A stretch of DNA of 64,000 bases from Candidatus Nanohalarchaeota archaeon (GCA_030634545.1 DAOWAN010000001.1:15010-79009); one strand, 5' to 3'. Positions 29,773-52,540 are shown, numbered from the stretch's first letter. Translations and numbers: made by a program. Notes: generated by a model from the letters alone, not told the origin.

Positions 29773-31200
29773 ATGAAAGTCGCTCTAATATTCCCACCAT
29801 ACAAACACAAAAAGTTTGCAGAAAACGTGAATGTAGTTGATGAAGAATTCGGGTGTTATCCACCTCTTGCACTTGCCTATACTGCCGCGATTTTAGAAAA
29901 TAAAAAACATGATGTCATCATTATTGATTCTAATGCACTTAGCATCTCTAAAGAAGAGACACTTGAAAAACTAAAAAAATTCAATCCGGATGTCATTAGC
30001 TTTAATCTCCATTCAGTCTATTCCTTCTTTGACACACTCGAATGGATAAGATACTTTAAGCAAAACACAAAACTGCCGATAGTAGCTGGCGGAAACATTG
30101 TACCTGTCTATCCACGCGAAATCATGAAATACAATGTGATTGACTACATTGTTTTGGATAATTCCCTGAAATCCCTGCCAAAACTGCTCTATGCACTGGA
30201 TAACAAAAAGACATACAATAAAATAAAGGGAATAGGCTACAGAAAGAATAACAGCACTATTGTAATCAATAAATCAGATGCAAAAGATTATTACTGCAAT
30301 CTGGACGAACTTTTCATGCCGGCAAGGCATCTTCTGCCAAACGACAAATATTACTCTTTTATATCAAAGAAAAAGAATTTCACGATAATGCTCACTTCAA
30401 GAGGCTGTCCTTACAATTGTGTTTTTTGTGCAATCAGGAAAGACAAGTATTTACAGAGAAACCCAAAGAAAGTAGTGGATGAGATTGAGATATGCATAAA
30501 AAAGCATGGTATCAGAGAAATAGATTTTTTTGATGCAACATTTACTGCAAATAAAAAATGGGTTTCACGTTTCTGCGCTGAAATAAAAAAAAGAAATCTG
30601 GTAGTTGACTGGTCATGCAGGACACGCGTAGATTGTGTAGATGACAAACTTCTCTACACAATGGCAAATGTAGGATGCAAAAGAATATACTACGGCATTG
30701 AATCAGCAGATGAGGAAGTACTTAACTCCATATCAAAAGAGATATCTTTTTCACAGGTAAAAAAAGCCATCATCCTCACAAAGAAACATGGCATCAAAGC
30801 ACTCGGCTTCTTTATGATTGGAAATCCAAATGATACAAAAAAATCAGTTGAAAAGACAATTCAACTTGCAAAAGGACTTAGTCTGGACTATGTACAGTTT
30901 TCAAGGACAATACCAAAACCAGGCACCGATCTGGAAAAGGAATTATCTGGCGCTGACAGTGATTACTGGAGAAATTACATTAAAGGCATTGTACCAGAGA
31001 GAAGAATCAAGACAAATTATTGCAAATTAAGTGACAAAGAAATAGAATACTATACTAAAAAAGCATATATTACATTCTACTTGAGACCAAAATACGTTTA
31101 TCATACACTAGGTGAAATCCGCTCATATCATGAGTTCAAAAGATACATAAAAGCCGGTCTGTTCATGATTATGTCTTTTTTCTCATCTGACAATTCGTAG
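29773..31200 (+). CDS. B12-binding-domain radical SAM enzyme (class B type)
   Basis: An N-terminal Rossmann-like B12-binding segment (KVALIFPPY...HDVIIIDSN) is followed by MLTSRGCPYNCVFCA (CxxxCxxC). Confidence 0.8.
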   Translation: MKVALIFPPYKHKKFAENVNVVDEEFGCYPPLALAYTAAILENKKHDVIIIDSNALSISKEETLEKLKKFNPDVISFNLHSVYSFFDTLEWIRYFKQNTKLPIVAGGNIVPVYPREIMKYNVIDYIVLDNSLKSLPKLLYALDNKKTYNKIKGIGYRKNNSTIVINKSDAKDYYCNLDELFMPARHLLPNDKYYSFISKKKNFTIMLTSRGCPYNCVFCAIRKDKYLQRNPKKVVDEIEICIKKHGIREIDFFDATFTANKKWVSRFCAEIKKRNLVVDWSCRTRVDCVDDKLLYTMANVGCKRIYYGIESADEEVLNSISKEISFSQVKKAIILTKKHGIKALGFFMIGNPNDTKKSVEKTIQLAKGLSLDYVQFSRTIPKPGTDLEKELSGADSDYWRNYIKGIVPERRIKTNYCKLSDKEIEYYTKKAYITFYLRPKYVYHTLGEIRSYHEFKRYIKAGLFMIMSFFSSDNS

Positions 31201-32263: not shown

Positions 32264-32269
32264 GTGATT

Positions 32270-35587: not shown

Positions 35588-35648
35588 TATACTTATAATA
35601 GCCTCTCATTTTTTTATATCTCTCATAAAATATTGTATTGATTGCTTT

Positions 35649-37217: not shown

Positions 37218-37236
37218 CGTATCATCAATCAGCTTA

Positions 37237-38196
37237 TTACTTTTTTAAATACTTTATAAACAAAGCGATTTTTAGTTGAAAAAGCAGATTTAATTCAACA
37301 TTTCCAAAACAATTACATCTGCTGCATACAGGAAAATTAAGTTCTTGAAATCCCTTAAGGAACCCACCTCTGACATTAGGAGGATTCTCTCTGTTATTGC
37401 TTCTACTGCATGCATACATGCTTCCGTCAGGTTCTATCCTGCAAAATATTTTACCTGCACTGCAATTATTGTAATTAAAACCCTCAGGCTTGATAAAATG
37501 TCTTAGGCAATCTGTTGAGTTCATCACATTTTTTTCCTGAGTTAGCTTTCTAATTGCATCTGTAAACTTCTTTTTTTCAGGAATTATGTTTTTAACACCC
37601 TTAGCTGAAAATGTATATGTGTCTACAGGTTGGAAGAGAACACCGACATCCATATCTCTTGCAATTTTCAAGACCTCGTCAAGATGTTCAACATTGTACT
37701 TTGTTATCACAGTTGTGATGTCTACGTTTAAGCCATGCTCTTTTGCAGTCCGGATACCTTCAATTGTTTTTTTGTATGTTCCTTTCCCGCGATGTATTTC
37801 ATGTATCGACTTATCACCGTCAAGACTTATTGAAAGACGATTCAATGGCATTATGTCATCAATTTTTCTCTTCACAAGAGAGCCATTAGAGTTCATTGTG
37901 ACATAAATTTTGCATTCCCTTGCATATTGTATTATTTGTCCTATATCTTCTCTTAATAACGGTTCTCCACCTGTCAGAGAGAGTACTGCTGTCTTTGCAT
38001 TTTTCATTTCTTTGATTAGTCTTAAGATTTCATCTGTTGAAAGTTCATCAGGATTGTTTTTCCATACAGCACAGTACTTGCATGTATAATTACAGCGCCA
38101 CGTTAAAACACAACTGACAATGACAGGAATTTTTTCCTTAAAGAACTTTGCTCTTAGAATTCCTGTCCCTGCACGCAATTTATTTATGAGAGCCAT
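37237..38196 (-). CDS. radical SAM/SPASM-like enzyme, paralog 2
   Basis: Motifs are VLTWRCNYTCKYCAVW and LTGGEPLL. The C-terminal motifs are CSAGKIFCRIEPDGSMYAC and CSRCNCFGN. It is a paralog of 33007..34002. Confidence 0.8.
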   Translation of the reverse strand: MALINKLRAGTGILRAKFFKEKIPVIVSCVLTWRCNYTCKYCAVWKNNPDELSTDEILRLIKEMKNAKTAVLSLTGGEPLLREDIGQIIQYARECKIYVTMNSNGSLVKRKIDDIMPLNRLSISLDGDKSIHEIHRGKGTYKKTIEGIRTAKEHGLNVDITTVITKYNVEHLDEVLKIARDMDVGVLFQPVDTYTFSAKGVKNIIPEKKKFTDAIRKLTQEKNVMNSTDCLRHFIKPEGFNYNNCSAGKIFCRIEPDGSMYACSRSNNRENPPNVRGGFLKGFQELNFPVCSRCNCFGNVELNLLFQLKIALFIKYLKK

Positions 38197-38357
38197 ATCT
38201 TATCTTTATTGTAAGACATATTTAAAATCTTAGCTCTGCTATCTCTTAGACTCTCTTACTTTCAACATCATGATTTCACAGATATAGAATCTATTGACGC
38301 TATGAAATTCAGACATATCACTCAAATTGTCGGATTTACGAGATTTTATGATACAAG

Positions 38358-38441
38358 TCACCCGTAACGATATATCTCATATTTACCCCCGGGATAATAC
38401 ATTCTCGCATGAGTATCCAGAAAAAAGATATCCATTATCAT
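38358..38441 (-). pseudogene. 27-codon relic of a collapsed GT-C-like paralog
   Basis: It translates as MIMDIFFLDTHARMYYPGGKYEIYRYG*. This is the paralog-family N-terminus (FFLD.ATRMYYY) joined directly to the family C-terminus (YSGD.YEIY.Y). Confidence 0.5.
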
Positions 38442-38473
38442 AATATTTGCACCAAAAAACAATAACCATCCAT

Positions 38474-40437: not shown

Positions 40438-40887
40438 ATGAAAAGTGATGATAAAGCATCTTTTTTGAAAAATGTGGACTTTGATTTAAGTAAAAAAGTT
40501 ACCCGGATTAATTTGAATTCTATGCTTTACCCGCGCACTGTTGTGATGAGAGCAGCATACTCATTTACTGACAGTTTCGATGTCGCTGTCGAAGGAGACG
40601 ATTCATCCAGCATTGTTTTCATCAGGGATAATGGTAATGATAAGCTGACACAAGCGGATTTTGAGGACATTGCCTATCGTTTTTATTCCGAACTGATTCA
40701 TGCAAGTGTTGAAGAGACTCAGGCGCGAAGATACGCAGACACAAGAAATGCACTGATAGGAGCTGCACTGAAATCATTATTTCCTATTACTGGTTCTTTG
40801 AACATACCCAAAGACACAAAATCTCCCCCAATTAAAGAACCTAAATTAAAAAATAATATCAAATCTACAACCAAAAACTGCAAATAA
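40438..40887 (+). CDS. small soluble protein, HxsD-like candidate
   Basis: 149 aa. The pattern YPRTVVMRAAYSFTDSFDVAV...IVFI...FYSELIHASVEE...R.ALIGAAL recalls the His-Xaa-Ser system protein HxsD as I remember that family. It lies directly upstream of the Trp-repeat peptide. This assignment is from memory only. Confidence 0.4.
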   Translation: MKSDDKASFLKNVDFDLSKKVTRINLNSMLYPRTVVMRAAYSFTDSFDVAVEGDDSSSIVFIRDNGNDKLTQADFEDIAYRFYSELIHASVEETQARRYADTRNALIGAALKSLFPITGSLNIPKDTKSPPIKEPKLKNNIKSTTKNCK

Positions 40888-40975: not shown

Positions 40976-41299
40976 TTGCAAGTGCGTGGTATTGTGAATA
41001 TTAAAGATAAACTAAAGAAGATAAAGCAAATGGACTTATGGAAACCCGGTGACAATGAAAAGACCGGTGTTGTAAACGGGCTGATTCTCTTGGGTGCTGC
41101 TGTTGGAGCCACGCTGTCTTTCCAGGGTCATGATGCTTGTGCAGATGCACCCCTCTGTAGTAATGATGAATGGGGCAACTGGTCAGACTGGACTAATAGC
41201 TGGAACAACTGGTCAGACTGGACTAACTGGAGTGACTGGAGTGATTGGGAGCATTGGGGCAATTGGGGAAACTGGGGAAATTGGGGAAACGGTGACTAA
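40976..41299 (+). CDS. Trp-Xaa-(Asn/Asp/His) repeat peptide, candidate RiPP precursor
   Basis: The frame is open from TTG 40976, but the most likely start is ATG 41030 (MDLWKPGDNEK...). A hydrophobic helix (GLILLGAAVGATLSF) and HDACADAPLCSNDE are followed by WGN WSD WTN S WNN WSD WTN WSD WSD WEH WGN WGN WGN WGN GD. Synonymous codon variation preserves this frame. Confidence 0.65.
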   Translation: MQVRGIVNIKDKLKKIKQMDLWKPGDNEKTGVVNGLILLGAAVGATLSFQGHDACADAPLCSNDEWGNWSDWTNSWNNWSDWTNWSDWSDWEHWGNWGNWGNWGNGD

Positions 41300-41429
41300 C
41301 CAGTTTGATTGAAATACAGATTATAATAACAAAAGCCTGCAAATGGCTTTATACCGCTACAGACCATGCATGGCAATGTCCTGATTGTATAGTTCAGGTC
41401 GTTACTATCTGGACAAACTGAACCAAAAA

Positions 41430-41767
41430 CCAATAGACCTTAACTATCCGGGCGAATCTCAAAGATTCGCTGGATTTCGCAAATCGTACCGATTTCCTAT
41501 ATCGCCAAAAACGCATGCGTTTTTGCGACACTAAAATTCCCGAGGAATTTTAAGAGTTGCGAAATTAGGAATTGGGTAGCAATTTCGCAATCATAAAAAT
41601 CACAAAGTGATTTTTAATGATCCTAACAAATCACATTGATTTGTTGGATGCTAAAATTGCATCGCAATTTTAAGCATATGGAAAAGTCATATAGTCCATT
41701 TTGAAGACGATAGTCTTCGAAAGCTTGGCATGTAATGCCATGAAATAGTTATGACTTTTACTATATT
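41430..41767. repeat. mosaic hairpin-array intergenic repeat, copy B
   Basis: It shares its 5' end, a 98-nt identical block (41595-41692) and its 3' end with copy A. It shares a 117-nt block (41476-41592, 6 mismatches) with copy C. It ends 2 nt before the radical-SAM gene start. Confidence 0.85.
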
Positions 41768-41769
41768 AC

Positions 41770-43605
41770 GTGAACAATATGTTGAATTCAAAATTATATT
41801 GCGCTTTAGGTTATGCCTGTAATAATAACTGCCTTATCTGTGTTGTTGATTCTGAAAAAAAAGCCAAAGCAAACCTGCAGACCGTTGAAATTATTAACTA
41901 TCTAAAAATACTGGATACAAATCCCGAGATAAAGAATATTGAGTTTTCAGGTGGTGAACCTACAGTCAGACATGATTTATTTTATATACTTGACTGGGTG
42001 CACCAGCATCATCCAAGAATAACTTATACTATTTTCAGTAATGGACGACGCTTTTGCGATATTGATTTTGCAAATAAAATCTCAGGATATCCTGTAAAGG
42101 ATCTTCTTATTGCAATTCATGGCAAAGATGCAAAGACACATGATTTATTGACACAAAGAAAAGGAAGTTTCAATCAGACATTTATGGGCATCAGAAATCT
42201 TTCTGAGAACAAGGTTAATGTTGTCCTGAAGATCATACCCAACCAGCTGAATTATAGACAGATCCCGGACATTGTAAGGATGTTTGTCAGCCATTTCCCA
42301 TATGTCAGGACCATGACTATCAATGGAATTGATATCGGAGGTTGTGCTCTTGATAATATCGATAAAATAGGTCTTCGCCTTACAGATGCGATACCATATA
42401 TCCAGAAAGGACTGGACATCGCAAATGAGCATGGTCTGAAAGTTTGCACTTATTCAATACCAGAATGTCTGTTTGATGCAGAACATAGAAAATATGTGGG
42501 TCCCCAAAAGAGTCCCCTGTACAATTACAAGTCACCATTTCACGAACTGGACGACAAAGGTGACGAGTATGGATTTGGTCCTCTCTGCAGTGCTTGTTCT
42601 GCAAAAGACAACTGTGCCGGCTGCTGGAACACTTACTTAAGTGCTGTCGGGACCGATGAATTAAAACCGATAGTCAGACCAAAAAGCAATCCCTTATCAT
42701 CACCTAAACCCATGCAAAAAAATCGTTATGTTATTGAGATAACCGGTGCCTGTAATAATGATTGTATTTTCTGCCTGTACAACGGCAGCAGAAGTGAATC
42801 TATTTCATATGAAGATATTGTCTCACGCATACAAAGTTTTAACATGAAAAAGGGAGAGCAAGTATCATTATGTGGAGGTGAGCCGACATTAAGCATGGAT
42901 TTTGTAAAGATAATAGACTATGCTGTTTCAAAAGGGTTTCGCATCTCTGTAATATCAAACGGGAGAAAATTTTCAGATAAGCTATTTACAGAACAGGTAA
43001 TTAATGCCGGAGTATCTCATATCACTATTGATATACACGCTCATACAAAAGAACTTCATGACTCCATAACCCAAAAAGATGGGAGTTTTGATGAGACTGT
43101 TCGCGGCATAAGAAACCTGCAATCTACTGGCGTGGCACTCACACTCAAAGTGATAGTCAATAAACTGAATTATAGATATCTAAAAAACATCATTGAATTC
43201 ATTGCTGTAAATTTCACAGGTATAAAATCAGTCGTTTTTGCATCCATCAGTATCAGAGGCAGTGCATTGAAGAACAAAGAACAAGCAATTGTGAAATTGA
43301 ATGAAGCAGCACCATACATACAAAAAGCAATAGATAAAGCACAGGCATCAGGCATTCGTGTTGATCTGGATATGTTTCCATATTGTATTTTTGAACATAA
43401 GTACTTTAAGCAGATCCGTATGAGAAAACAGGACAATTTATTTCTTCTGGATGATAGTTGTGTTGTGAAACCCGACAATGCTTCAAGTGTTAAAGGCAGC
43501 TTTCCATTTTGCAGGGAATGCCGGTTCGCCAATAAATGCCCAGGTGTATGGAAAAACTACAGGGATATTTACGGTGAGAGTGAATTTAAATGTATTCACA
43601 AATGA
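41770..43605 (+). CDS. fused tandem-duplicated radical SAM enzyme (two HxsC-like halves)
   Basis: 611 aa. Half 1 has CALGYACNNNCLICVV, and half 2 (from about residue 315) has EITGACNNDCIFCLY. The halves align over SGGEPT, SNGR.F, TQ.KGSF..T..GIRNL, LK.I.N.LNYR and APYIQK. Each half ends with a Cys motif (CSACSAKDNCAGCW and CRECRFANKCPGVW). Confidence 0.8.
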   Translation: MNNMLNSKLYCALGYACNNNCLICVVDSEKKAKANLQTVEIINYLKILDTNPEIKNIEFSGGEPTVRHDLFYILDWVHQHHPRITYTIFSNGRRFCDIDFANKISGYPVKDLLIAIHGKDAKTHDLLTQRKGSFNQTFMGIRNLSENKVNVVLKIIPNQLNYRQIPDIVRMFVSHFPYVRTMTINGIDIGGCALDNIDKIGLRLTDAIPYIQKGLDIANEHGLKVCTYSIPECLFDAEHRKYVGPQKSPLYNYKSPFHELDDKGDEYGFGPLCSACSAKDNCAGCWNTYLSAVGTDELKPIVRPKSNPLSSPKPMQKNRYVIEITGACNNDCIFCLYNGSRSESISYEDIVSRIQSFNMKKGEQVSLCGGEPTLSMDFVKIIDYAVSKGFRISVISNGRKFSDKLFTEQVINAGVSHITIDIHAHTKELHDSITQKDGSFDETVRGIRNLQSTGVALTLKVIVNKLNYRYLKNIIEFIAVNFTGIKSVVFASISIRGSALKNKEQAIVKLNEAAPYIQKAIDKAQASGIRVDLDMFPYCIFEHKYFKQIRMRKQDNLFLLDDSCVVKPDNASSVKGSFPFCRECRFANKCPGVWKNYRDIYGESEFKCIHK

Positions 43606-43625: not shown

Positions 43626-45047
43626 ATGGATGACAAAACATTTGCACTGAATGAATATTTTACAAAATCTTTAGCAGATAATCGCATTCTTGTAACTACA
43701 CGGCATGGTTCATGGTGTGAACTGGACAAAAGAGAGTATGACTTGCTACAAAGACAGAATTTTGAACACGACAAAGTCCTGTTTAAGAAACTAAAAGACA
43801 TAGGCATTATTCTGACAGAAAGTAATGTTGAATCTGTTGTGAAAAGGACTGCCCTGATGTTTGATGATTACAGGCAGCGCAATTTTACATGCGTGATTAA
43901 CCTCACAAATAAATGTAACCTGGATTGTGCATATTGCCTTGCAGAATCAGGTCCAAATCAGGATGAACAGGATATGTCTATTGAGAATATGTATTCATTG
44001 GTAAAATTTATTAATGGCTCTCCATGGGATAGCATAGATATTGAATTCCAGGGTGGAGAGTCTACCCTGCGATTTGATCTTATCAGGAAGTTTGTTGAAA
44101 TTATTGAGAGTAATCTGGATAAGCATAAGGAAATAAGACATTTTGTACTGGTCACAAATCTCACCTGTTTTAATAAAGAGATTGCAGATTATATTGTCAA
44201 AAAGAATTTTCGGATTGGCTCTTCACTGGATGGACCAGAGAAACTGCATGATTTTCAAAGGGCATTTCCTGACGAAAGTGGTTCTTATGAAAAAGTAGTT
44301 TACTGGGCAGATTACCTGAAAAAACGAGGAGTACATATCGGGTTTTCATCTACAATCACAAAAAAAAGTCTTGAATTCGGTGCGCGCGCAATTATCGATG
44401 AATACATGAACAGAGGTATGGAATATGTTATGCTCCGACCGTTTACATCATGTGGAAGAGGTGAGGACAGGACTGACCTTGTGATGGAACCAGAGGATTT
44501 TTTTAAGTTCTGGAAAGATGCTGTCGATTACCTTGTTGAACTTGCAGATAACGGAATATACATGTCTGAAAAGAATCTTGGACAGATGATAAAAAATATT
44601 TTTACACCTTACAGAACATATATGTGCCTAAAAAGACCATGTGGTGCTGCTATTTCCCAGATGTCCTTTATGCAGGATGGCCCGATATATGCATGTGATT
44701 CCGGGAAAAGGATTGAAGCATTGAAGATCGGCAACTATGTCAGTGGAAAATATGCAGATACATTACTAAATAGTCTGCAACTTAGGACTTTGTCTTCTGA
44801 AGCGCAGCCATTGTGTGATACATGTGTATATACTGCATTTTGCGGTACCTGCATAAGCAGGATGTTTTCAAGCTGGTCTGATTCTGTAGGAAGAACACCA
44901 AGGGATTTTGACTGCAAAGTTCACAAGTGGATGTTCACATACATTTTTAAGAAAATGAATGATCCTCGATATGCGAAACTATTTAGCAGACTAGCTGGCG
45001 CCGGGCGCGGTGATGATACACCATGCAGAACGCATGAGGTCAGTTGA
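43626..45047 (+). CDS. radical SAM/SPASM-domain peptide-maturase-like enzyme (HxsB/anSME-like)
   Basis: Motifs are INLTNKCNLDCAYCLA (CxxxCxxC) and FQGGESTL. SPASM-type C-terminal motifs are CGAAISQMSFMQDGPIYACDSG and CDTCVYTAFCGTC. Confidence 0.85.
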   Translation: MDDKTFALNEYFTKSLADNRILVTTRHGSWCELDKREYDLLQRQNFEHDKVLFKKLKDIGIILTESNVESVVKRTALMFDDYRQRNFTCVINLTNKCNLDCAYCLAESGPNQDEQDMSIENMYSLVKFINGSPWDSIDIEFQGGESTLRFDLIRKFVEIIESNLDKHKEIRHFVLVTNLTCFNKEIADYIVKKNFRIGSSLDGPEKLHDFQRAFPDESGSYEKVVYWADYLKKRGVHIGFSSTITKKSLEFGARAIIDEYMNRGMEYVMLRPFTSCGRGEDRTDLVMEPEDFFKFWKDAVDYLVELADNGIYMSEKNLGQMIKNIFTPYRTYMCLKRPCGAAISQMSFMQDGPIYACDSGKRIEALKIGNYVSGKYADTLLNSLQLRTLSSEAQPLCDTCVYTAFCGTCISRMFSSWSDSVGRTPRDFDCKVHKWMFTYIFKKMNDPRYAKLFSRLAGAGRGDDTPCRTHEVS

Positions 45048-45920
45048 ATGGATCTTTTCTGGCTAATCAAATTACTTAGTATTGTTATTGCCCTTCGTTA
45101 TCTGAGGATATTTAGCATGCATTCTGTTGCAATTTATTTAACCGGGGCATTTGCCATGGTTTTTCTGAAACCAAGAGCGCATTATTTCGTACCAGAATAT
45201 ATTTTAATAATGACAGTTTCATTGTTTTTTGCTTATATTTTATCTCTTTCAGTATATGACTTTTTAAGAAATATCAAAAGTATTAAATTTGAATCCATTT
45301 TGAGTAAAGATATTCTTGAAAGATATGGCGACTTCTTTTTTGCCATGTTTGTGATTTCATCCATATTATCTTTTTTTAATCTCCCATTTATCGGGACAAT
45401 ATTTTTTATGATAGTATTTTTTATTGCTCTTGAGATTATCCGCCTTAATATGCATGGCGAAACACAATGGTTCTTTAATTACAGAATATGGTCCGCTGTC
45501 CTTTTTTTGTATTTTGTGTTCTTTAACCAGTTCCCGGTTCTTCTGATTGTTATTCAACAAAGTATTTTTCTATGTGGACTGTTATTTATCTTCTCATTCG
45601 TACGATACTTCAACGTATATGCCTGCCCATTAGATGAACTCAAGGCAGGAATGGTTCCTGCTGAAACAATCATAAAAAAAGGCAGTACATTTACCAAGGA
45701 AAATGTGCCATATATCTCCCCTTTTGTTTATCTCAGGAAAAAAGTGATTAATAAGATATTTAAAAGACATGAACTGATAACTCCTTTCAGGCACTTGACC
45801 AATGACTCCATCAAGATATTGAGAACTAAGACACATTTCGATATTTTAATGGTACAAAGAACTATAGATATGAGCATTTTTTTAATTTTAGGCATCATTG
45901 CAACCTATTTTGTCAGGTAA
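45048..45920 (+). CDS. polytopic membrane protein of unknown function, translationally abutting the SPASM enzyme
   Basis: 290 aa with about 6-7 hydrophobic helices and a basic soluble C-terminal segment. The ATG follows the upstream TGA directly (45047/45048). Confidence 0.55.
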   Translation: MDLFWLIKLLSIVIALRYLRIFSMHSVAIYLTGAFAMVFLKPRAHYFVPEYILIMTVSLFFAYILSLSVYDFLRNIKSIKFESILSKDILERYGDFFFAMFVISSILSFFNLPFIGTIFFMIVFFIALEIIRLNMHGETQWFFNYRIWSAVLFLYFVFFNQFPVLLIVIQQSIFLCGLLFIFSFVRYFNVYACPLDELKAGMVPAETIIKKGSTFTKENVPYISPFVYLRKKVINKIFKRHELITPFRHLTNDSIKILRTKTHFDILMVQRTIDMSIFLILGIIATYFVR

Positions 45921-45969
45921 TTTATTGTATAGTGAAGGCATGAAATAAATGAGCAAACATCACAAAAAA

Positions 45970-46335: not shown

Positions 46336-48147
46336 CTAACAAGCAGAATCCGTAGTATGTATACCAGTGCATGAATTACCATCACAATCATTATCTTCTA
46401 CTTTATCAATAAGGATATAAAACTGAAGTGTCGGATTCACCCACTGATTTGTGCTAACATCATAATATTTGTATTTTGCATCTGTAATCTTTACAAGAAC
46501 TTTGATATGTTTCAAAGCATAAAAGTGACCATAGGTCACAGTACAGGTTACTTTACGACACTTAATGGGATTGCCATCAGTGCCACAGTCACCATAACCA
46601 CACGTGCAGCTACTCACACTACAATCACTTTTCATATGATCATGATATGTCAGATAAGCATCAGATCCAGTCTCTACATTATCCCCGCCAGTGCATTCAT
46701 CCGTCCCGGAACCGAAAGAGGTATGATCATTTGTATGACCATCTGCACAGTCCATTCTAATACTTACAGGACCAACGAACTCCCACACCAGATCATCAGA
46801 ATTATAAATCGTATTAAGATTAGTTTCAGCACTATTCAGAGCAGATTGAATAATATTTAAGAAATCATTCTCATCATATTTATCCGTATCATCATTAGGA
46901 CACAAAGGTTCACAGCTATCACAACAACCACCCAGACAGTTACCACTACACTCATCGCAACAATCACGCGTTTCACTTTCACGATGATAGTCATCAAGAG
47001 CATTAAGCCCATCAAATACCTTGTTTTTTATGAGTGTATCAAGATTCAACAAAAGATATTCACCTGCATCACTAAGCGCATAATGCCTGACTTTGATCTC
47101 CTCTTCTATCAGCCCGGAACTCGTTATTGTTACAAGATTATCATCCGGTTTTCCAAACAGGTCTTTTACTGAAAGTGTTATGCCATCTTCCTCAGACCAT
47201 ACTATACCTTTTGTGAAACTACCGGGAATATATATACCCTGCAGTGGTTTGATTTCTGTAACGATATCATTTTCCAGTTCGGAATTTTTTTCGGTAAGCA
47301 GCGTTTCCATATTAGCATGATATTTATTAAGATTTTCTGTAAACAGTTCATTTTGTGCATGTATAATATTATTATCATAAATTGTAATACCTATTTGCTT
47401 TATTACTGCAACCTCATCTACTTCACCAATTGAATTAGTACCATTGAACTGTATAGTCAATGGACATTCATTTCCAGCCGCAAGATTACCTGCACCAATA
47501 TCAGTTATTATGTACTCATATGTCCCGTCATAGGTTATTATATTTGGAGTCGGAATTACCGGTTCAATGGTAATCCCAGGACCCCCTGTAATCTGCACTT
47601 CTCCTTTCTTTATCATAATCAGATTGACAACCATGTGCATATCATATACATCATCAGCTAGTTCCTCTATATACTGTTGAAGTTCACCATCCTTATTAGA
47701 CTTAACGCAATAGTTGAGTTCCCCCACCAGAATATTAGGATCTTTAGCTACCAGATATGGCACTCGCATATCTGTTCTCATGCAGCCCGGAAGCGCCCAA
47801 TAAGGTATCGCTGTAGATCCGCTTTCAATTCTCAGTCTGGGTCCTGTACCATCCACATAGCCATCCGCATTCGTATCGACAAGAGTATCCTCTGGAAAGT
47901 TACCACCCGCCATCAACTCTTCATGCGTTTCCATCAATGAATGAAATGCCGCTGTCTTCTCAAAACCCTGCTTTATATTCTGGATGTTTTTGTCCATTGT
48001 AAGGCTGAAGTATTTATTGTAAAGATTAATTGATTCCTTTGTACCCCATATTAATTCACCGCTTACTCTTAGAATCATGACACCAAGTACAACCATTATA
48101 ATAAATACACTTATCATTACCGTCATATTTGCTTTATTATAGTTCAT
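46336..48147 (-). CDS. large Cys-rich surface protein with pilin-like N-terminal helix
   Basis: 603 aa. The N-terminus is MNYNKANMTVMISVFIIMVVLGVMIL. It contains dense Cys clusters (RDCCDECSGNCLGGCCDSCEPLC) and is the last gene of the minus-strand pilin-like operon. Confidence 0.6.
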   Translation of the reverse strand: MNYNKANMTVMISVFIIMVVLGVMILRVSGELIWGTKESINLYNKYFSLTMDKNIQNIKQGFEKTAAFHSLMETHEELMAGGNFPEDTLVDTNADGYVDGTGPRLRIESGSTAIPYWALPGCMRTDMRVPYLVAKDPNILVGELNYCVKSNKDGELQQYIEELADDVYDMHMVVNLIMIKKGEVQITGGPGITIEPVIPTPNIITYDGTYEYIITDIGAGNLAAGNECPLTIQFNGTNSIGEVDEVAVIKQIGITIYDNNIIHAQNELFTENLNKYHANMETLLTEKNSELENDIVTEIKPLQGIYIPGSFTKGIVWSEEDGITLSVKDLFGKPDDNLVTITSSGLIEEEIKVRHYALSDAGEYLLLNLDTLIKNKVFDGLNALDDYHRESETRDCCDECSGNCLGGCCDSCEPLCPNDDTDKYDENDFLNIIQSALNSAETNLNTIYNSDDLVWEFVGPVSIRMDCADGHTNDHTSFGSGTDECTGGDNVETGSDAYLTYHDHMKSDCSVSSCTCGYGDCGTDGNPIKCRKVTCTVTYGHFYALKHIKVLVKITDAKYKYYDVSTNQWVNPTLQFYILIDKVEDNDCDGNSCTGIHTTDSAC

Positions 48148-48176
48148 TTATTCACTTCATATTTTCTTGTATTCTG

Positions 48177-48842
48177 CTAGACTAGGAGATCTTTGCAACA
48201 ACAGTGATTTATGTCACATGCATATTTATCTTTGCATATACCGCCAAATATCTGACACGTCTTTTTTTGTACACAGTACAAATCATCATCCTCTGGACAC
48301 GTCGATTTATCAGTATCTATTTCAAAATTTTTCTTTATTTTCAATACTGCAATAGCAATCCCATTATTTTTTGGTAGAGCTATGTGTTCCTCTTCTATTG
48401 AGATATCACCTTCATCCAGTTCCCATCCAACTGTCAGATAATTCATATCTCCATATTTCACATAAAAATAGTACTCATCAATGTAGAGTCTATCTGCATA
48501 TTCTTCTATGCATTCTCCTATCTGTATGATATCTTCATTGCCATTATATTCTATTTTAATGTCATCATCTGCATCAGGGATTGGACTTTGCGAAAGTGCT
48601 ATTGCGATTACATCTTTGAGTGGCAGTGTTGTATTTGAAGTGCAGTGATTATTGTTCAAAAGCACATATAGATACGTATCCACAGTTGATGTTTCCTCTG
48701 CAAATTTTAATGTTTCAACTGCCTGTTTTGTGAAAAGTACTTGTGCCAGAATTATCACCACAGCACAGACCAGCAGTATTACCATAGTCAAATAGATGTC
48801 AAACATCATTATTCCCTTCTTGTGCGTGTTTCGTGTATTCAT
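48177..48842 (-). CDS. class III signal peptide (pilin-like) protein, Cys-rich C-terminus
   Basis: 221 aa. The N-terminus is HKKG|IMMFDIYLTMVILLVCAVVIIL and the C-terminus is CPEDDDLYCVQKKTCQIFGGICKDKYACDINHCCC. Confidence 0.6.
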   Translation of the reverse strand: MNTRNTHKKGIMMFDIYLTMVILLVCAVVIILAQVLFTKQAVETLKFAEETSTVDTYLYVLLNNNHCTSNTTLPLKDVIAIALSQSPIPDADDDIKIEYNGNEDIIQIGECIEEYADRLYIDEYYFYVKYGDMNYLTVGWELDEGDISIEEEHIALPKNNGIAIAVLKIKKNFEIDTDKSTCPEDDDLYCVQKKTCQIFGGICKDKYACDINHCCCKDLLV

Positions 48843-48844
48843 AT

Positions 48845-50050
48845 TTACACCTGTTTCAACAATACATTCAACTGTGTTGATTGTCCTGATTTATATAGCA
48901 ACGTGCTTTTTTCATAATCTTCATATCCGTCTTTAGTTATCTTCACATTAACATATCCGGATGTAGAACCAGCTATAACTGTTGAGAAATCTATATTTTG
49001 TATCAGATAATCACCATCTTTATCCGATTCAGTGGAGAATAAATTCTCCGGTATTTCGATTAATGCTCCTTTTATTGGTTCTCCTGTAGCATCATCAGAT
49101 ATTGTTCCTGTAAGGTGCGCGTATATTAATTCGTAATTCTCTGCACATCGTCTGTTTGTTTCACAAATTTCAGATTCGCAACTATCCTTTAATTCTCCAA
49201 GGCACGGCTGACCCAGTATCAATTTGTCAGGTATAGAACCCCCCGCACACTTTTGTTCATCTGTGCAGTCAAATGTTTCACATTCACAATCATTGGAACA
49301 CCCATCCCCTGATTTTTTGATATATGTACATTCTTCTGGCTGACATGTTGCATTTGCCTGCCCCGGACCCTTTATGCAATTCTCTAAAAAGCAATTATTT
49401 ACAGCGTATTTGTAGATATGTGATATATGATCTAACTCTGAACCAGCGATTGTTGTTTTACCTTCGCTTTTGTAATCACAGAACATTTCATCCTGAAGTT
49501 TGTCAGTCCATGTATTTGTCTCAATATTCGCACTAAGTATTGCAGTATGATATTCATCCAGCAATACATATCCGAATTCCTCATCCACAGGTTCACTATT
49601 CGTATTTAACTGTATTATCATGTCGAAGTCAGGTTTCATCTTTTCTATTATCAGCGGCTGATAGTTGCTGAATGTCCATCTTTGCCTGCTCTCAAGATCT
49701 TTTATATCTATCCGGTATTTGATATTGCCAATATCCAGACAGGACAATGTAGCACTATTTAATTCAGAAGAGATTCTTATCTGATCCACAATGAATTTCC
49801 TGATTTCCACACGGTCCCCTAGATTATTATTTGTACAGGGCGCTGTAAGATAATTATTAAACATTGCTATTTCAAGGCTTTCCTCAGATAATATATCTTG
49901 TATCTGTTGTTCATCTGATGTACTTACCATGGAAAATATAAGGAAAAACATTAGTAATGATAATGTAATGAATATAACGATCATCTGAATTGTTTCACCA
50001 GCCATAAAATCACTGAAATAAATTAATGTCATTGTGTGACATATTTGCAA
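48845..50050 (-). CDS. pilin-like N-terminus, Cys-rich middle, carboxypeptidase-regulatory-like C-terminal domain
   Basis: 401 aa. The likely start is MAGETIQMIVIFITLSLLMFF at 50005. The C-terminal GTISDDATGEPIKGALIEI...TDKDG-like beta-sandwich pattern is of the CarboxypepD_reg type. Confidence 0.6.
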   Translation of the reverse strand: MQICHTMTLIYFSDFMAGETIQMIVIFITLSLLMFFLIFSMVSTSDEQQIQDILSEESLEIAMFNNYLTAPCTNNNLGDRVEIRKFIVDQIRISSELNSATLSCLDIGNIKYRIDIKDLESRQRWTFSNYQPLIIEKMKPDFDMIIQLNTNSEPVDEEFGYVLLDEYHTAILSANIETNTWTDKLQDEMFCDYKSEGKTTIAGSELDHISHIYKYAVNNCFLENCIKGPGQANATCQPEECTYIKKSGDGCSNDCECETFDCTDEQKCAGGSIPDKLILGQPCLGELKDSCESEICETNRRCAENYELIYAHLTGTISDDATGEPIKGALIEIPENLFSTESDKDGDYLIQNIDFSTVIAGSTSGYVNVKITKDGYEDYEKSTLLYKSGQSTQLNVLLKQV

Positions 50051-50499
50051 CTATTTTGTTTTATGTCACAGCATTCTTCCCCTGCATCACATATTGTTAT
50101 CTGCGGCTTGCATTCAATTATTCTTTTTGATATGCATATCCTTTCTGTGCCTGCCATATTCTCACTATTAATTACATTTTTCTGGTAATGAGGCATTGCA
50201 AACGAGTGTATCATTCCAGATTCATCTGCAAGAGTGTGCGTTTGTTCAATAAATGTCAGACGTACATGCGTCTCGTTCAGTTCATATGCAAAGTTCTTTT
50301 TCAGATCAAATTGCCTTACACCCTGTTCAACTGTCGCTAGATTCACAATTATACTTGTAATCGCACGTGTTGTCTGATCTGTTATTATGTCAAGTTCTGC
50401 ACCAGTAAGTCCAGTCATCATTTTCGTACCAACAACCACTACAAGAGCAGCAACAATTAACGAACCTAAAATAGTGATAATCTCTACAGTTTCTGACAT
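50029..50499 (-). CDS. membrane-anchored/pilin-like protein (156 aa)
   Basis: The N-terminus is MSETVEIITILGSLIVAALVVVVG and the C-terminus is Cys-rich (CKPQITICDAGEECCDIKQNSC). Confidence 0.5.
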   Translation of the reverse strand: MSETVEIITILGSLIVAALVVVVGTKMMTGLTGAELDIITDQTTRAITSIIVNLATVEQGVRQFDLKKNFAYELNETHVRLTFIEQTHTLADESGMIHSFAMPHYQKNVINSENMAGTERICISKRIIECKPQITICDAGEECCDIKQNSCKYVTQ

Positions 50500-50529
50500 A
50501 TATTACAACCTCTCTTCACTTACTACAAT

Positions 50530-50694
50530 CTATTTCTTTGATGCAACATCCACAATTTCTGCCGGTAGGTTAACAAGTCTCAATATATCAAGAACATTTC
50601 CAAAAACCCGGTTTACTGCAATGACAATCACAGCAGCAGCTAACATCGCAATCAATAATCCACGTATCCAGCGCGGAATTTCCATGACACCCAT
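50530..50694 (-). CDS. small pilin-like protein (54 aa, not in the supplied ORF track)
   Basis: It translates as MGVMEIPRWIRG|LLIAMLAAAVIVIAVNRVFGNVLDILRLVNLPAEIVDVASKK. A GGTGA motif lies 6 nt upstream of the ATG. Confidence 0.55.
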   Translation of the reverse strand: MGVMEIPRWIRGLLIAMLAAAVIVIAVNRVFGNVLDILRLVNLPAEIVDVASKK

Positions 50695-50716
50695 TTATCA
50701 TCACCTGTTTTACATT

Positions 50717-52540
50717 TCACTTTTTAATGCATCCATACTCTGATTTTTGCTCATCCAATTCCCATTCACATATACCAGAACATTCGCCACATATTGTTTT
50801 ACTATGACAGCTCACACAGTCTCCACAGCATTGCCGGTATATTATTATTGTTTCTTCTTTTATGTTGTTATCTTCTCTTTGTTTTTCATTGATGACAGGA
50901 TATATTGCAGTATCTATATTATCTATTCTTACTTTTACTGTGTTCAGTTCACTCTTATCGAAACTGCCTGCACTCAATCCATCAGTAGTTATATCGGATA
51001 TATCAACAGTCTCAGATGGGTCAATTGTTACTTCATTTACATGAACAGTCTCTTCATTACCATTTATTGTGACATACAGGTTCTCCCCGTCAAATGATAT
51101 TGCCTCAGCTCCATTGTTTCTGATTTTTACATTAATATATCTTAAACCAACATCCATAGAACTAAATATAGTATTCTCATCACAGTCTTCAACAGCTTTG
51201 CATGGGTGTATGTCCACAATACTTATATCTGGAGGAGCACTGCATTCATGTGTTCCTTCATTTTCTATAATTGTTCCCTCTCGATATACCTTCTCTGGCA
51301 GATGGCATGCACCTTCTGGTTCATCTGTAACAACATGGGTCAATATATTCACACAGCCGGTTTCGTATTCTGTCTTTAGAGAATATTTACAGACGCCATC
51401 AAGAGTGTATTCACCGTCATCTGAGCGACTGGAGAGAATATATTCCCAGTATTTACCATCATCATCAGTCTCACCATAGCAAAGATATTTTTCCAGATTA
51501 GTACATCTCATACTTGCAGAAACTCTCGCTGTACATACACCAACATCACTACCCTCTGCTTCAATAAGAATATTGAACAGAATCTCTTTTAATTCCCCGT
51601 TGATTTTAGGCATAGTGAAATGATAGTACGAATCACCTTCATTATATTTAAGCCCAAGATCATGAGATGATGCAATTCTACAATCTGCAATAATAACGCC
51701 TGTTTCAGGATGCCTGCATCCACCACCGCTTCCACCAAATATAATCTGCACATCTGCTTTCATATGTGAAGACAATGCTGATTTCACTTCTTTTTTGAAA
51801 TTAACTTTTGTTATATCCTTTGTACCCATCTGATTAAAATTTATGCCCTCAGGAAAACTTGCATCATTCACGCAGGTCCATCTTTTAGTGATTGGCTTGA
51901 CTTCTTCTACATTGAATGATATTTCATAAATCTCGGGCTTGAATTTTTCCAGTTCTGCTTTCTTTTCACATGGCAGTTGAAATTCAACATCACTGCAGAT
52001 GCCGTCACATAATTTGTAATAATCATCAACTAATATTAAAGACACTCCGTCTTTATCCCGTATAGCTATCGCTTCAGTATCATCACCGGTCTTGGGTTTA
52101 ATTTTCATACTAGGATTTACGATATCTTCTTTGAGTGTAAGGGTCATTGTTGAGCATGGCTGAAACTCTCCTTTAAGTGCATAATATTCCGTAGTTGAAG
52201 TACCTGTTGAACCACCTCCGGATGCTTCCTGTTCATCATGAATCTCCTTTATTTTTGTAAATATCTCACCACAGGTAAGTTCACTTTCTTCATACGGCAC
52301 TTCGTTGCACTTTAGCCTTTCATCTTCAGTATATGACTCCCCTGGACATTTTGGCATACATAATGCTTCTTCAAGGTACAATGCAGTTAGTTCAGGACTC
52401 ACATCAGGTATTGCTTCTCTTCCCCCTTCTTCACCCTGAGCTGTGAAAACAGCAAAAAGACCAATAGCTACCACAGCAATCACTAACAGTGCAAACAGAT
52501 GAACTTGACCTTTACAATTATTCCTTTGCATATACATCAA
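50717..52540 (-). CDS. large class III signal peptide protein with CARDB-like domain and Cys-rich C-terminus
   Basis: 607 aa. The N-terminus is MQRNNCKG|QVHLFALLVIAVVAIGL. It has a CARDB-like segment (YINVKIRNNGAEAISFDGENLYVTING) and the C-terminus CCGDCVSCHSKTICGECSGICEW. Confidence 0.6.
   Translation of the reverse strand: MMYMQRNNCKGQVHLFALLVIAVVAIGLFAVFTAQGEEGGREAIPDVSPELTALYLEEALCMPKCPGESYTEDERLKCNEVPYEESELTCGEIFTKIKEIHDEQEASGGGSTGTSTTEYYALKGEFQPCSTMTLTLKEDIVNPSMKIKPKTGDDTEAIAIRDKDGVSLILVDDYYKLCDGICSDVEFQLPCEKKAELEKFKPEIYEISFNVEEVKPITKRWTCVNDASFPEGINFNQMGTKDITKVNFKKEVKSALSSHMKADVQIIFGGSGGGCRHPETGVIIADCRIASSHDLGLKYNEGDSYYHFTMPKINGELKEILFNILIEAEGSDVGVCTARVSASMRCTNLEKYLCYGETDDDGKYWEYILSSRSDDGEYTLDGVCKYSLKTEYETGCVNILTHVVTDEPEGACHLPEKVYREGTIIENEGTHECSAPPDISIVDIHPCKAVEDCDENTIFSSMDVGLRYINVKIRNNGAEAISFDGENLYVTINGNEETVHVNEVTIDPSETVDISDITTDGLSAGSFDKSELNTVKVRIDNIDTAIYPVINEKQREDNNIKEETIIIYRQCCGDCVSCHSKTICGECSGICEWELDEQKSEYGCIKK

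What the first reader, a model, noticed from the sequence alone, without database searches (positions are those of the whole stretch)
41171..41290. Thirteen W-x-(N/D/H) triplets whose codon variation is silent only in the Trp frame
TGG recurs every 9 nt, with one 12-nt step at S-WNN.

The same tripeptides are written with different codons. WSD appears as tgg-tca-gac (twice), tgg-agt-gac and tgg-agt-gat. WGN appears as tgg-ggc-aac, tgg-ggc-aat, tgg-gga-aac and tgg-gga-aat. WTN appears as tgg-act-aat and tgg-act-aac.

These differences are synonymous in the 40976..41299 frame. In the overlapping +1 ORF (41094..41312, a Gly-x-x repeat) they would change residues. This is direct evidence that selection acts on the Trp frame and on the third-position Asn/Asp.

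The region upstream of the core is not a typical soluble RiPP leader. It has a basic start, a hydrophobic helix (GLILLGAAVGATLSF) and two Cys (HDACADAPLC). The peptide may therefore be membrane-tethered or secreted before or after modification.
Basis: seen in the sequence. Interest (0 to 1): 0.7.

Follow-up and report, generated by a model that had tools for sequence, protein, structure and literature searches.

The report
Trp-repeat substrate of archaeal Hxs cassette
The thirteen Trp-x-Asn/Asp repeats are the real, selected C-terminal core of a small exported peptide that sits where the His-x-Ser protein normally sits in a radical-SAM "Hxs" maturation cassette of a DPANN-type archaeon, so a system known in bacteria as an antiphage module here has a different, Trp-based substrate.

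Summary
There are 13 in-frame TGG codons at 41171-41282, spaced 9 nt apart with one 12-nt step, and the codon variants are exactly as listed. The Trp frame is the coding frame: across five orthologues dN/dS is 0.07-0.13 there, against 0.6-1.6 in frame +1 and 0.8-3.8 in frame +2.

The ORF is a 101-aa precursor, with its start probably at GTG 40994. It lies between an HxsD-like gene and a fused double HxsC, an HxsB radical-SAM/SPASM gene, and a membrane protein derived from an A24 prepilin peptidase without its catalytic module.

This order recurs in related DPANN loci. More distant HxsB relatives sit next to classical His-x-Ser repeat proteins instead.

The precursor family is rare, with 15 clusters among 1.84 billion representatives. 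Its members share a basic leader with an invariant EKTG, a hydrophobic segment, an AxA-type site, an invariant Cys and a Trp-rich core. The first core unit is W-x-N/D in 41 of 41 members.

The most likely mechanism is radical-SAM cross-linking of Trp to the i+2 Asn/Asp, as in triceptides, followed by export. That chemistry is inferred, not shown. I rate it a new variant of a known kind.

The parts
40438..40887 (+). HxsD-like small protein (149 aa)
   Evidence: It matches NCBIfam TIGR03976 HxsD at E 3.4e-10 and 40.1 bits, below the cutoff of 50. Orthologues in L001, L002 and L085 carry precomputed Pfam PF27806 HxsD hits. It sits immediately upstream of the precursor in the loci where that flank is present.
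40994..41299 (+). Precursor gene (101 aa plus stop). The ORF is open from TTG 40976. GTG 40994 (MNIKDKLKKIK...) is the start inferred from homologues.
   Evidence: ORF. Homologues begin M-[SGN]-[IVL]-[KRH]-D-K-[LI]-K-K-I-K. dN/dS is 0.07-0.13 in this frame. No NCBIfam or Pfam family matches.
40994..41068 (+). Basic leader n-region, M1-G25, with conserved DKLKKIK and the nearly invariant E22-K23-T24-G25 (G25 invariant)
   Evidence: In alignment A3 of 36 members, K9 and G25 are invariant and E22, K23 and V26 are at least 90% conserved. A local profile-profile match to the leaders of classical archaeal HxsA proteins gives probability 67%, E 5e-5.
41069..41122 (+). Hydrophobic segment V26-F43 (VVNGLILLGAAVGATLSF)
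   Evidence: Mean Kyte-Doolittle hydropathy is 1.91. An equivalent segment is present in all 41 family members, range 1.5-2.4.
41135..41143 (+). A48-C49-A50, an AxA-type candidate signal-peptidase site. Cleavage after A50 would leave a 51-aa acidic peptide, D51-D101.
   Evidence: A matching (A/V/T)-x-(A/S/G) sits at the same alignment position in most members, for example ASA, AHA, VHA, VNA, AEA. Cleavage is inferred, not shown.
41156..41158 (+). Cys55, invariant across the family. The other Cys, C49, is not conserved.
   Evidence: It is an invariant column in A3. It is followed by an acidic residue within 1-3 positions in the window and in most aligned members, read by eye.
41171..41290 (+). 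Core array: 13 W-x-(N/D/H) units, with N or D at the third position in 12 of 13 and one extra Ser after unit 3
   Evidence: This is the highest Trp count in the family; other members have 3-10.
41094..41312 (+). Overlapping +1 ORF (Gly-x-x), not a gene
   Evidence: dN/dS is about 0.6-1.6 in that frame. It stays open in L001 and L002 too, because GGN and AYT codons cannot be stops.
41385..41700 (+). Hairpin-array intergenic element, copy 1, between the precursor gene and hxsC
   Evidence: It is a chain of at least 6 near-perfect hairpins, -83.8 kcal/mol, z = -8.6. A second copy lies at about 45930-46300, with a core 94% identical. No Rfam family matches. It is absent from L001 and L002.
41770..43605 (+). 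Fused double HxsC radical-SAM protein (611 aa)
   Evidence: TIGR03977 HxsC scores 300.2 bits, above the cutoff of 267.9, with 2 stretches. The N half is orthologous to the single HxsC of L003-L005 (38-43%). The C half is a 30.6% paralogue. Both halves keep CxxxCxxC and a C-terminal CxxCx5C.
43626..45047 (+). HxsB-like radical-SAM/SPASM maturase (473 aa)
   Evidence: TIGR03978 HxsB scores 300.1 bits over residues 13-455, below the cutoff of 370. The next family, PapB, scores 140 bits. C97/C101/C104 and eight C-terminal Cys are conserved. The nearest solved structures are CteB (5wgg) and anSME (4k37). The 27 closest clusters form one clade.
45048..45920 (+). Membrane protein (290 aa) derived from an A24 prepilin-peptidase-like protein, lacking the catalytic module
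   Evidence: Residues 182-289 match the C-terminal part of the A24-like proteins of classical Hxs loci (hhalign 99.1%, E 5e-19). An HMM of those proteins aligns residues 43-289 to model positions 104-350 only. The classical proteins keep SYxD..GKIxN and W.AGDxKLF; this clade does not. Arc_PepC is a weak hit here (E 0.035) and stronger for the L004 orthologue (8e-5).
46336..52540 (-). Convergent cluster of five membrane-anchored, pilin-like proteins (603, 221, 401, 156, 607 aa) with conserved linkage to the cassette
   Evidence: Homologues lie in the same position in L001, L002, L004, L005 and L006. The N-termini look like archaeal class III signals, for example ..HKKG|IMMFDIYL and ..NCKG|QVHLFALLVIA. 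A functional link is inferred from synteny only.

Best explanation
The array is the C-terminal core of a 101-aa ribosomal precursor. This precursor occupies the HxsA (substrate) position of an Hxs-type radical-SAM maturation cassette in a DPANN-type archaeon. The cassette order is HxsD-like, precursor, HxsC-HxsC fusion, HxsB, A24-derived membrane protein.

The basic, conserved leader (DKLKKIK...EKTG) is most likely the handle recognised by HxsD together with the maturases in the cytoplasm.

The radical-SAM enzymes then most likely abstract a hydrogen from C-beta of the Asn/Asp at i+2 and join it to the indole of the Trp at i. That would give up to 13 consecutive three-residue cyclophanes, each with a mass change of -2 Da. 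This is the chemistry that triceptide enzymes such as OscB perform on Trp-x-Asn/Asp.

The hydrophobic segment and the AxA-type site then direct export. Either a 51-residue, strongly acidic, Trp-striped peptide is released, or, if cleavage is at EKTG|V as in a class III signal, the peptide stays anchored by its hydrophobic helix. It would then act at the cell surface, possibly with the adjacent pilin-like proteins.

Shown: the coding frame, purifying selection, family membership, conserved gene order, and co-variation of the HxsB clade with substrate type.

Inferred: recognition by HxsD, the cross-link chemistry, export and cleavage, and the biological role.
For: Coding frame and selection.

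Cassette identity: HxsC passes the NCBIfam cutoff. HxsB and HxsD are best hits below their cutoffs, and orthologous HxsD proteins carry Pfam hits.

Conserved order: D, precursor, C, B, membrane protein is seen in the window and in L001, L002 and L005. L003 keeps it as far as HxsB before the contig ends, and in L004 no HxsD ORF was listed.

Co-variation: HxsB relatives at or below 35% identity carry classical H-x-S repeat proteins. The 27 closest HxsB clusters form one clade.

Leader: it has the same layout as classical archaeal HxsA leaders, with weak profile similarity (E 5e-5).

Motif: W-x-N/D at the first core unit occurs in 41 of 41 members. N and D are the commonest +2 residues from any core Trp, 150 of 285.

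Chemical precedent: OscB links Trp C7 to C-beta of Asn or Asp at i+2, and XncB links Trp C6 to C-beta of Arg/Asn (PMC11002830).

Functional precedent: in E. coli, HxsB, HxsC and HxsD are all needed for covalent modification, N-terminal processing and export of HxsA (PMC13128918).

Enzyme class: HxsB is a SPASM enzyme whose nearest solved relatives (CteB, anSME) abstract H from peptide C-alpha/C-beta (the mechanism is my own knowledge).
Against: No chemistry is known for any HxsB or HxsC. The only reported mass change is +8 Da on one SHRSS motif, not the -2 Da of a cyclophane.

HxsB is not a member of the characterised cyclophane-forming families. GrrM/OscB scores 65.7 bits against a cutoff of 310.

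Other subfamilies of the same precursor family have cores such as WKNHCWNWSWCWCWSWGWGWG or WxNHCWWDHxW. There the +2 residue is W or H. The conserved target may therefore be Trp itself, or the Cys, rather than a W-x-N/D triplet.

The A24-derived partner lacks the catalytic Asp motifs.

Export has not been tested with a signal-peptide predictor.

The organism is inferred from the taxonomy of homologues only. The window contig is not on record.
Confidence: 0.55

Rival explanations
1. The peptide is the substrate of the Hxs enzymes, but the chemistry is not a Trp-to-(i+2) cyclophane. Candidates are the still-undefined HxsA-type modification (+8 Da), Trp-Trp or Trp-His cross-links, or a thioether from the invariant Cys55 to a nearby Asp/Glu as in ranthipeptides. 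In this reading the W-x-N/D array serves mainly as a structural or binding surface.
For: PapB, a ranthipeptide Cys-Asp thioether maturase, is the second-best NCBIfam hit of HxsB at 140 bits, and CteB is the nearest solved structure. Cys55 is invariant and followed by an acidic residue within 1-3 positions. Sister subfamilies have period-2 W-x cores or HCWW motifs in which N/D is not at +2. The only measured Hxs modification is +8 Da.
Against: The first core unit is W-x-N/D in 41 of 41 members, and N/D at the third position is invariant among five orthologues while the middle residue drifts. That pattern is expected if the third residue takes part in the reaction. The classical H-x-S motif has the same i/i+2 geometry.
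Confidence: 0.3
2. The peptide is an unmodified exported or pilin-like surface peptide. Its Trp stripe works by aromatic stacking, for example binding glycans, S-layer or host surface. Alternatively it is glycosylated at its W-x-x-W or N-W-S motifs by the neighbouring GT-C (PMT_2) enzymes. In this reading the radical-SAM genes serve another purpose.
For: The peptide has a signal-like N-terminus. A pilin-like cluster is conserved next door. Three PMT_2 glycosyltransferases lie directly upstream in the window. Every Trp lies in a W-x-x-W context, the eukaryotic C-mannosylation consensus (my own knowledge).
Against: The precursor is flanked by HxsD/HxsC/HxsB in every W-clade locus with enough flanking sequence. 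The HxsB clade co-varies with the substrate type. The PMT_2 genes are absent from the cassette neighbourhood in L001, L002, L004 and L005.
Confidence: 0.08
3. The real product is the overlapping +1 Gly-x-x ORF (41094..41312), or the array is a non-coding 9-nt satellite.
For: The +1 ORF is open for 72 codons. Tandem Repeats Finder detects 9/18-nt periods.
Against: dN/dS is about 1 in frames +1 and +2, against 0.07-0.13 in the Trp frame. Third-codon-position differences dominate in the Trp frame. The conserved leader and 41 homologues all read in the Trp frame. The +1 frame stays open for compositional reasons.
Confidence: 0.01

Closest known systems
HXS (His-Xaa-Ser) system: HxsA/HxsB/HxsC/HxsD (TIGR03979/03978/03977/03976; antiphage function shown in E. 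coli, PMC13128918)
   Same: Both have a pair of radical-SAM enzymes of the HxsB (SPASM) and HxsC types plus a small HxsD. Both have a substrate with an N-terminal signal-like region and a C-terminal array of three-residue repeats whose first residue is an aromatic heterocycle. In archaeal and CPR versions the leader layout is the same: a KIKK-type basic stretch, an acidic/Gly motif, a hydrophobic segment and AxA. Those versions also have an A24-type membrane partner.
   Different: The repeat is W-x-(N/D), not H-x-S, and the precursor does not match TIGR03979. The core is strongly acidic (net -6; -9 for the putative mature peptide) rather than basic, so the proposed electrostatic DNA-binding mode does not carry over. 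There is no peptidoglycan-binding domain. Gene order is D-A-C-B rather than D-B-C-A. HxsC is duplicated and fused. The A24 partner has lost its catalytic part. The host is a DPANN-type archaeon, whereas 99.7% of described systems are in Pseudomonadota.
Triceptides made by three-residue cyclophane-forming enzymes, especially OscB/GrrM on Gly-rich repeat precursors (PMC11002830)
   Same: The substrate motif is the same, aromatic-x-x with Trp at position 1 and Asn or Asp at position 3, repeated many times and often with Gly in the middle (WGN). The maturase is a SPASM-type radical-SAM enzyme.
   Different: The maturases here belong to the HxsB/HxsC families, not GrrM/OscB or XncB (65.7 bits against a cutoff of 310). 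A second radical-SAM enzyme and HxsD are present. The precursor has a signal-peptide-like leader. The host is archaeal. The cross-link is unproven.
Darobactin/dynobactin-type Trp cross-linked peptides (DarE, DynA)
   Same: Both involve radical-SAM/SPASM enzymes acting on short Trp-containing cores such as W-N-W-S-K-S-F. DynA is among the HxsB hits (108.8 bits).
   Different: The score is far below the family cutoff of 450. The core is a long regular array rather than a 7-9-mer. The accessory genes differ.
Archaeal type IV pilin-like proteins with class III signal peptides processed by A24 peptidases (FlaK/PibD type)
   Same: A basic N-terminus ending in K-T-G is followed directly by a hydrophobic helix. 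An A24-related membrane protein is encoded in the cassette, and a cluster of pilin-like proteins lies next door.
   Different: The n-region is unusually long at 25 residues. The cassette's A24 relative lacks both catalytic Asp motifs. A conserved AxA-type site after the hydrophobic segment fits a Sec signal peptide equally well.

Membership tests
HXS (His-Xaa-Ser) system | HxsC radical-SAM maturase (TIGR03977) | tested here: met
   300.2 bits against a cutoff of 267.9, with two HxsC modules in one 611-aa protein.
HXS (His-Xaa-Ser) system | HxsB radical-SAM/SPASM maturase (TIGR03978) | tested here: inconclusive
   It is the best hit by far (300.1 bits, full length 13-455; the next family scores 140) but falls below the equivalog cutoff of 370. 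It forms a separate clade from NCBI-named HxsB proteins.
HXS (His-Xaa-Ser) system | HxsD small protein (TIGR03976 / PF27806) | tested here: inconclusive
   E 3.4e-10 and 40.1 bits against a cutoff of 50. Orthologues in L001, L002 and L085 carry PF27806 hits.
HXS (His-Xaa-Ser) system | HxsA substrate with tandem His-Xaa-Ser repeats (TIGR03979) | tested here: not met
   The window core has no H-x-S repeat and no NCBIfam hit at E <= 0.01. The W-family profile finds no classical HxsA at E <= 0.001 in 1.84 billion representatives. Leader-only profile similarity is weak (probability 67%).
HXS (His-Xaa-Ser) system | Antiphage function through a basic, peptidoglycan-anchored periplasmic effector | not testable with these tools
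   Function cannot be tested here. The core is acidic and no extra domain is present, so the published mode of action is unlikely to carry over as such.
Triceptides (3-CyFE products) | Aromatic-x-x motif in the core, with Trp/Phe/Tyr/His at position 1 | tested here: met
   There are 13 W-x-(N/D/H) units. W-x-N/D is exactly the OscB motif.
Triceptides (3-CyFE products) | Maturase belonging to a characterised 3-CyFE family (GrrM/OscB TIGR04261, XncB, MscB/FxsB and others) | tested here: not met
   HxsB scores 65.7 bits on TIGR04261 against a cutoff of 310. No other 3-CyFE model is near its cutoff.
Triceptides (3-CyFE products) | C(sp2)-C(sp3) bond between the aromatic ring of residue i and C-beta of residue i+2 | not testable with these tools
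   This needs mass spectrometry and NMR of the modified peptide.
Gly-rich repeat precursors of GrrM/OscB (TIGR04260) | Match to the precursor family model | tested here: not met
   The precursor has no NCBIfam hit at E <= 0.01.
Class III (prepilin-type) signal peptide substrates | Short basic n-region ending in G/A directly before a hydrophobic helix, plus an active A24 peptidase | tested here: inconclusive
   K-T-G|V-V-N-G-L is nearly invariant. However, the n-region is 25 residues long and the cassette's A24 relative lacks both Asp motifs. No intact A24 gene of the Hxs-linked type is in the window.

The most novel reading that the evidence does not exclude
Hxs-type radical-SAM pairs may be general i-to-i+2 side-chain cross-linkers. 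In that case the long-unexplained His-x-Ser repeats and these Trp-x-Asn/Asp repeats would be two substrates of one chemistry. In DPANN archaea the enzymes would build a rigid ladder of up to 13 consecutive Trp cyclophanes on an exported or pilin-like acidic peptide. That peptide would work with the adjacent pilin-like proteins at the cell surface, in virus exclusion or host attachment. It would be an archaeal counterpart of the bacterial HXS barrier with a different physical principle.
Probability: 0.25. Interest if true: 0.8.

Novelty: new variant of a known kind. Interest (0 to 1): 0.62.

Why it matters
The Hxs cassette was predicted bioinformatically more than a decade ago, and only in 2026 was it shown to be an antiphage system. 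Its chemistry remains unsolved.

A natural variant in which His-x-Ser is replaced by Trp-x-Asn/Asp, the motif that triceptide enzymes cross-link, gives a concrete and testable hypothesis for what HxsB/HxsC do. A Trp-rich substrate is also easier to follow by UV, fluorescence and MS.

The finding extends this type of system to DPANN archaea. It shows that archaeal and candidate-phyla versions carry an A24 prepilin-peptidase-type partner, which bears on the unexplained non-canonical N-terminal processing of HxsA.

If the product is a 13-fold cyclophane ladder, it would be one of the most densely cross-linked ribosomal peptides known.

Tried and rejected
- Within-array synonymous/non-synonymous counting over all unit pairs did not discriminate between frames. 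I replaced it with orthologue dN/dS.
- Looking up the window's own contig through its DnaK found nothing on record. The organism is therefore inferred from the taxonomy of homologues (DPANN: Nanohalarchaeota, Aenigmatarchaeota, 'archaeon') and from archaeal markers such as diphthamide synthase.
- AlphaFold2 of the 290-aa membrane protein with a 3-sequence alignment gave pLDDT 40, which is unusable, so I ran no fold search. A word-based homologue search found only 3 relatives.
- PADLOC gave only generic viperin-type radical-SAM hits for HxsB and HxsC.
- Rfam found nothing in the window at gathering thresholds and nothing credible in the hairpin element. No tRNA genes were found.
- The window's B12-radical-SAM gene (29773..31200) is not the homologue of the extra radical-SAM gene upstream of the cassette in L001.
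- Literature searches for DPANN radical-SAM precursor peptides and for HxsB chemistry returned no description of this Trp-type family.
- The +1 Gly-x-x ORF and a non-coding satellite were considered and rejected.

Full report
**1. The observation**

The ORF 40976..41299 (+) ends in 13 in-frame TGG codons at 41171-41282.

Trp is 1.2% of the six-frame translation. No other run of more than three W-x-x units exists in the window or in 50 shuffles of it.

Tandem Repeats Finder reports 9- and 18-nt periods, so part of the array is young. Examples are the four terminal WGN units and the duplicated WSD-WTN.

My own unit-by-unit synonymous/non-synonymous count did not separate the frames. The TCA/AGT serine pair is its best element.

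**2. Coding frame**

I fetched four orthologous genes:
- L001, whose HxsB is 73% identical to the window's
- L002, whose HxsB is 64% identical
- L083, which encodes precursor P0133 (81% identical to the window's in the search)
- L085, which encodes precursor P0135 (70% identical in the same search)

Nei-Gojobori dN/dS is 0.07-0.13 in the Trp frame, with synonymous sites often saturated. It is 0.6-1.6 in frame +1 and 0.8-3.8 in frame +2.

In the ungapped 22-codon block at the head of the core, every Trp and every third-position N/D is identical in all five genes. Their codons differ synonymously, and all replacements fall on the middle residue.

The +1 Gly-x-x ORF is a by-product. In that frame the codons are GGN, NNR and AYT, and two of the three cannot be stops. 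It is also open in L001 and L002.

**3. The neighbourhood**

NCBIfam assigns the flanking genes to the His-Xaa-Ser (Hxs) system:
- 40438..40887 is HxsD-like (E 3e-10, 40 bits, cutoff 50).
- 41770..43605 is HxsC (300 bits, cutoff 268).
- 43626..45047 is HxsB (300 bits, cutoff 370; the next family scores 140 bits).

The 611-aa HxsC is a fusion of two HxsC modules. The N half is orthologous to the single HxsC of related loci. The C half is a 31% paralogue. Both keep the CxxxCxxC and C-terminal Cys motifs.

HxsB has the SPASM Cys set. Its nearest solved relatives are CteB and anSME.

The order HxsD, precursor, HxsC, HxsB, roughly 290-aa membrane protein recurs in L001, L002 and L005, which are MAG and metagenome contigs of DPANN type. 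L003 shows it as far as HxsB, where the contig ends, and L004 shows it without a listed HxsD ORF.

HxsB relatives at or below 35% identity, in DPANN archaea, CPR bacteria and many other bacteria, sit next to classical H-x-S repeat proteins. The 27 closest HxsB clusters form one clade in a neighbour-joining tree. The enzyme lineage and the substrate type therefore co-vary.

**4. The precursor family**

A profile search found 38 proteins. An exhaustive HMMER search of 1.84 billion representatives found only 15 clusters, so the family is rare.

All members share these elements in order:
- a start M-x-x-x-D-K-L-K-K-I-K
- a nearly invariant E-K-T-G-V, in which G25 is invariant
- an 18-residue hydrophobic segment
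- an (A/V/T)-x-(A/S/G) site
- an invariant Cys (C55 in the window)
- a Trp-rich C-terminus

By homology the window gene probably starts at GTG 40994, giving 101 aa.

The cores come in three styles:
- W-x-N/D-H-C-W-W-D/N-H-x-W
- W-K-N-H-C-W-N-W-S-W-C-W-C-W-S-W-G-W-G-W-G, with period 2
- period-3 W-x-x arrays

The window has the longest array, 13 Trp against 3-10 elsewhere.

The residue two after the first core Trp is N or D in 41 of 41 members. Over all core Trp the +2 residue is N 79, D 71, W 60, H 38 and other 37.

The putative mature peptide D51-D101 has no Lys or Arg and a net charge of about -9.

**5. Relation to classical HxsA**

Archaeal HxsA leaders have the form ..PKIKKKISSFLxGEEGKISK, then a hydrophobic segment, then AxA. 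That is the same layout as here. A leader-only profile-profile comparison gives a weak but non-random local match (probability 67%, E 5e-5).

Neither the NCBIfam HxsA model nor the W-family profile crosses between the two families. I therefore treat the window peptide as occupying the HxsA position, with a probably homologous leader and a different core.

**6. The membrane partner**

In classical archaeal and CPR Hxs loci a 350-380-aa membrane protein precedes HxsD. It matches Peptidase_A24 and Arc_PepC and keeps both catalytic Asp motifs, SYxD..GKIxN and W.AGDxKLF.

The window's 290-aa protein (45048..45920) is homologous to the C-terminal two-thirds of these proteins (hhalign 99.1% for residues 182-289; HMM positions 104-350). 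It lacks the catalytic N-terminal module. It is best described as a peptidase-derived, probably non-catalytic, membrane partner.

The E. coli work found that N-terminal processing and export of HxsA are non-canonical and depend on HxsB, HxsC and HxsD (PMC13128918). The A24 link seen here may bear on that.

Whether the window peptide is cut at EKTG|V (class III style) or after A-C-A (Sec style) cannot be decided here. Both motifs are conserved.

**7. Wider context**

A convergent cluster of five membrane-anchored, pilin-like proteins (46336..52540, minus strand) is syntenic with the cassette in L001, L002, L004, L005 and L006. That suggests a shared role at the cell surface.

The rest of the window is ordinary chromosome:
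- DnaK and DnaJ
- a Na/H exchanger
- glycogen synthase
- type IV pilus ATPase and platform genes
- MTHFR
- diphthamide synthase

**8. Mechanism**

The best-supported model has three steps:
1. The leader is recognised by HxsD together with the maturases in the cytoplasm.
2. Radical-SAM hydrogen abstraction at C-beta of the i+2 Asn/Asp is followed by C-C bond formation to the indole of Trp(i), repeated along the array.
3. The product is exported.

The precedent is the triceptides. OscB links Trp C7 to C-beta of Asn or Asp at i+2 on Gly-rich repeat precursors (PMC11002830).

Several points count against the model:
- HxsB is not a member of those enzyme families.
- The only measured Hxs modification is +8 Da.
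- Sister cores lack N/D at +2.

The main rival is other chemistry on the same substrate. It could involve Trp-Trp or Trp-His links, or a thioether from the invariant Cys, given that PapB and CteB are the next-best relatives.

An unmodified or glycosylated surface peptide is a minor rival. Three GT-C/PMT_2 genes lie upstream in the window only, and every Trp lies in a W-x-x-W context.

**9. Verdict**

The feature is a new, Trp-based variant of the Hxs radical-SAM maturation system in DPANN-type archaea. Its core motif is that of triceptides, but its enzymes are different. No paper in the searchable library describes it.

Noticed in passing
window 41385-41700 and 45930-46300: A roughly 330-nt element made of at least 6 consecutive near-perfect short hairpins occurs twice in direct orientation. 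One copy follows the precursor gene and the other follows the membrane-protein gene, so the pair brackets hxsC-hxsB-mem. The core is 94% identical between copies. The RNA fold has z = -8.6. No Rfam family matches, and there are only two copies in the window. L001 and L002 lack it.
   Followed up: partly
window 41770-43605; L001 6122-7975; L002 3890-5947 (extended ORF, called gene 3917-5947): HxsC is a tandem fusion of two diverged HxsC modules (31% identical, both with intact Cys motifs). This occurs only in the subclade whose cores are pure W-x-N/D arrays. L003-L005 have a single HxsC of 299-323 aa.
   Followed up: partly
L022 1092-2228, L030 4039-5175, L045 3935-5062 and about 40 other loci: Classical H-x-S Hxs loci of archaea, CPR and several other bacteria encode an A24 prepilin-peptidase-like membrane protein with both catalytic Asp motifs, next to HxsD and HxsB. 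The published four-gene HXS description does not include such a component.
   Followed up: partly
window 33007-40216 (minus strand): Three paralogous GT-C/PMT_2 (Agl23-like) membrane glycosyltransferases are interleaved with two small PTO1314-like radical-SAM genes. A GT2 gene and an LPG_synthase_TM gene (31169-33010) lie alongside. This block lies directly upstream of hxsD but is not linked to the cassette in related loci.
   Followed up: no
L001 2390-5108; L002 503-3177; L085 3122-4906: Close relatives carry a second Hxs-like module upstream of the cassette, next to a Peptidase_U32 gene. In L001 and L002 it is a 466-474-aa radical-SAM gene, a second HxsD (131-135 aa) and a 283-287-aa protein with a weak DUF483 hit in L001. 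L085 shows only the radical-SAM gene and a 114-aa HxsD. The window lacks this module; its B12-radical-SAM gene at 29773-31200 is not homologous.
   Followed up: partly
P0130, P0131, P0136, P0137, P0139, P0141, P0147 (protein ids); L004 2151-2444: One sister subfamily of precursors ends in period-2 Trp cores such as WKNHCWNWSWCWCWSWGWGWG. Another repeats W-W-D-H-x. These cores are unusual in their own right and suggest the enzymes target Trp in several contexts.
   Followed up: no
window 5698-7767: A KAP-family P-loop NTPase fused to HEAT repeats matches PADLOC QatA, PifA and PDC-S20 models (E 2e-49 for QatA). It is a possible defence gene 33 kb from the cassette.
   Followed up: no
L022 5676-7361; L030 8094-10793: In some classical archaeal Hxs loci the second radical-SAM gene is fused to other domains. 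L022 has a Methyltransf_23 domain. L030 has DUF362 plus ferredoxin domains. This hints at further chemistry in the system.
   Followed up: no
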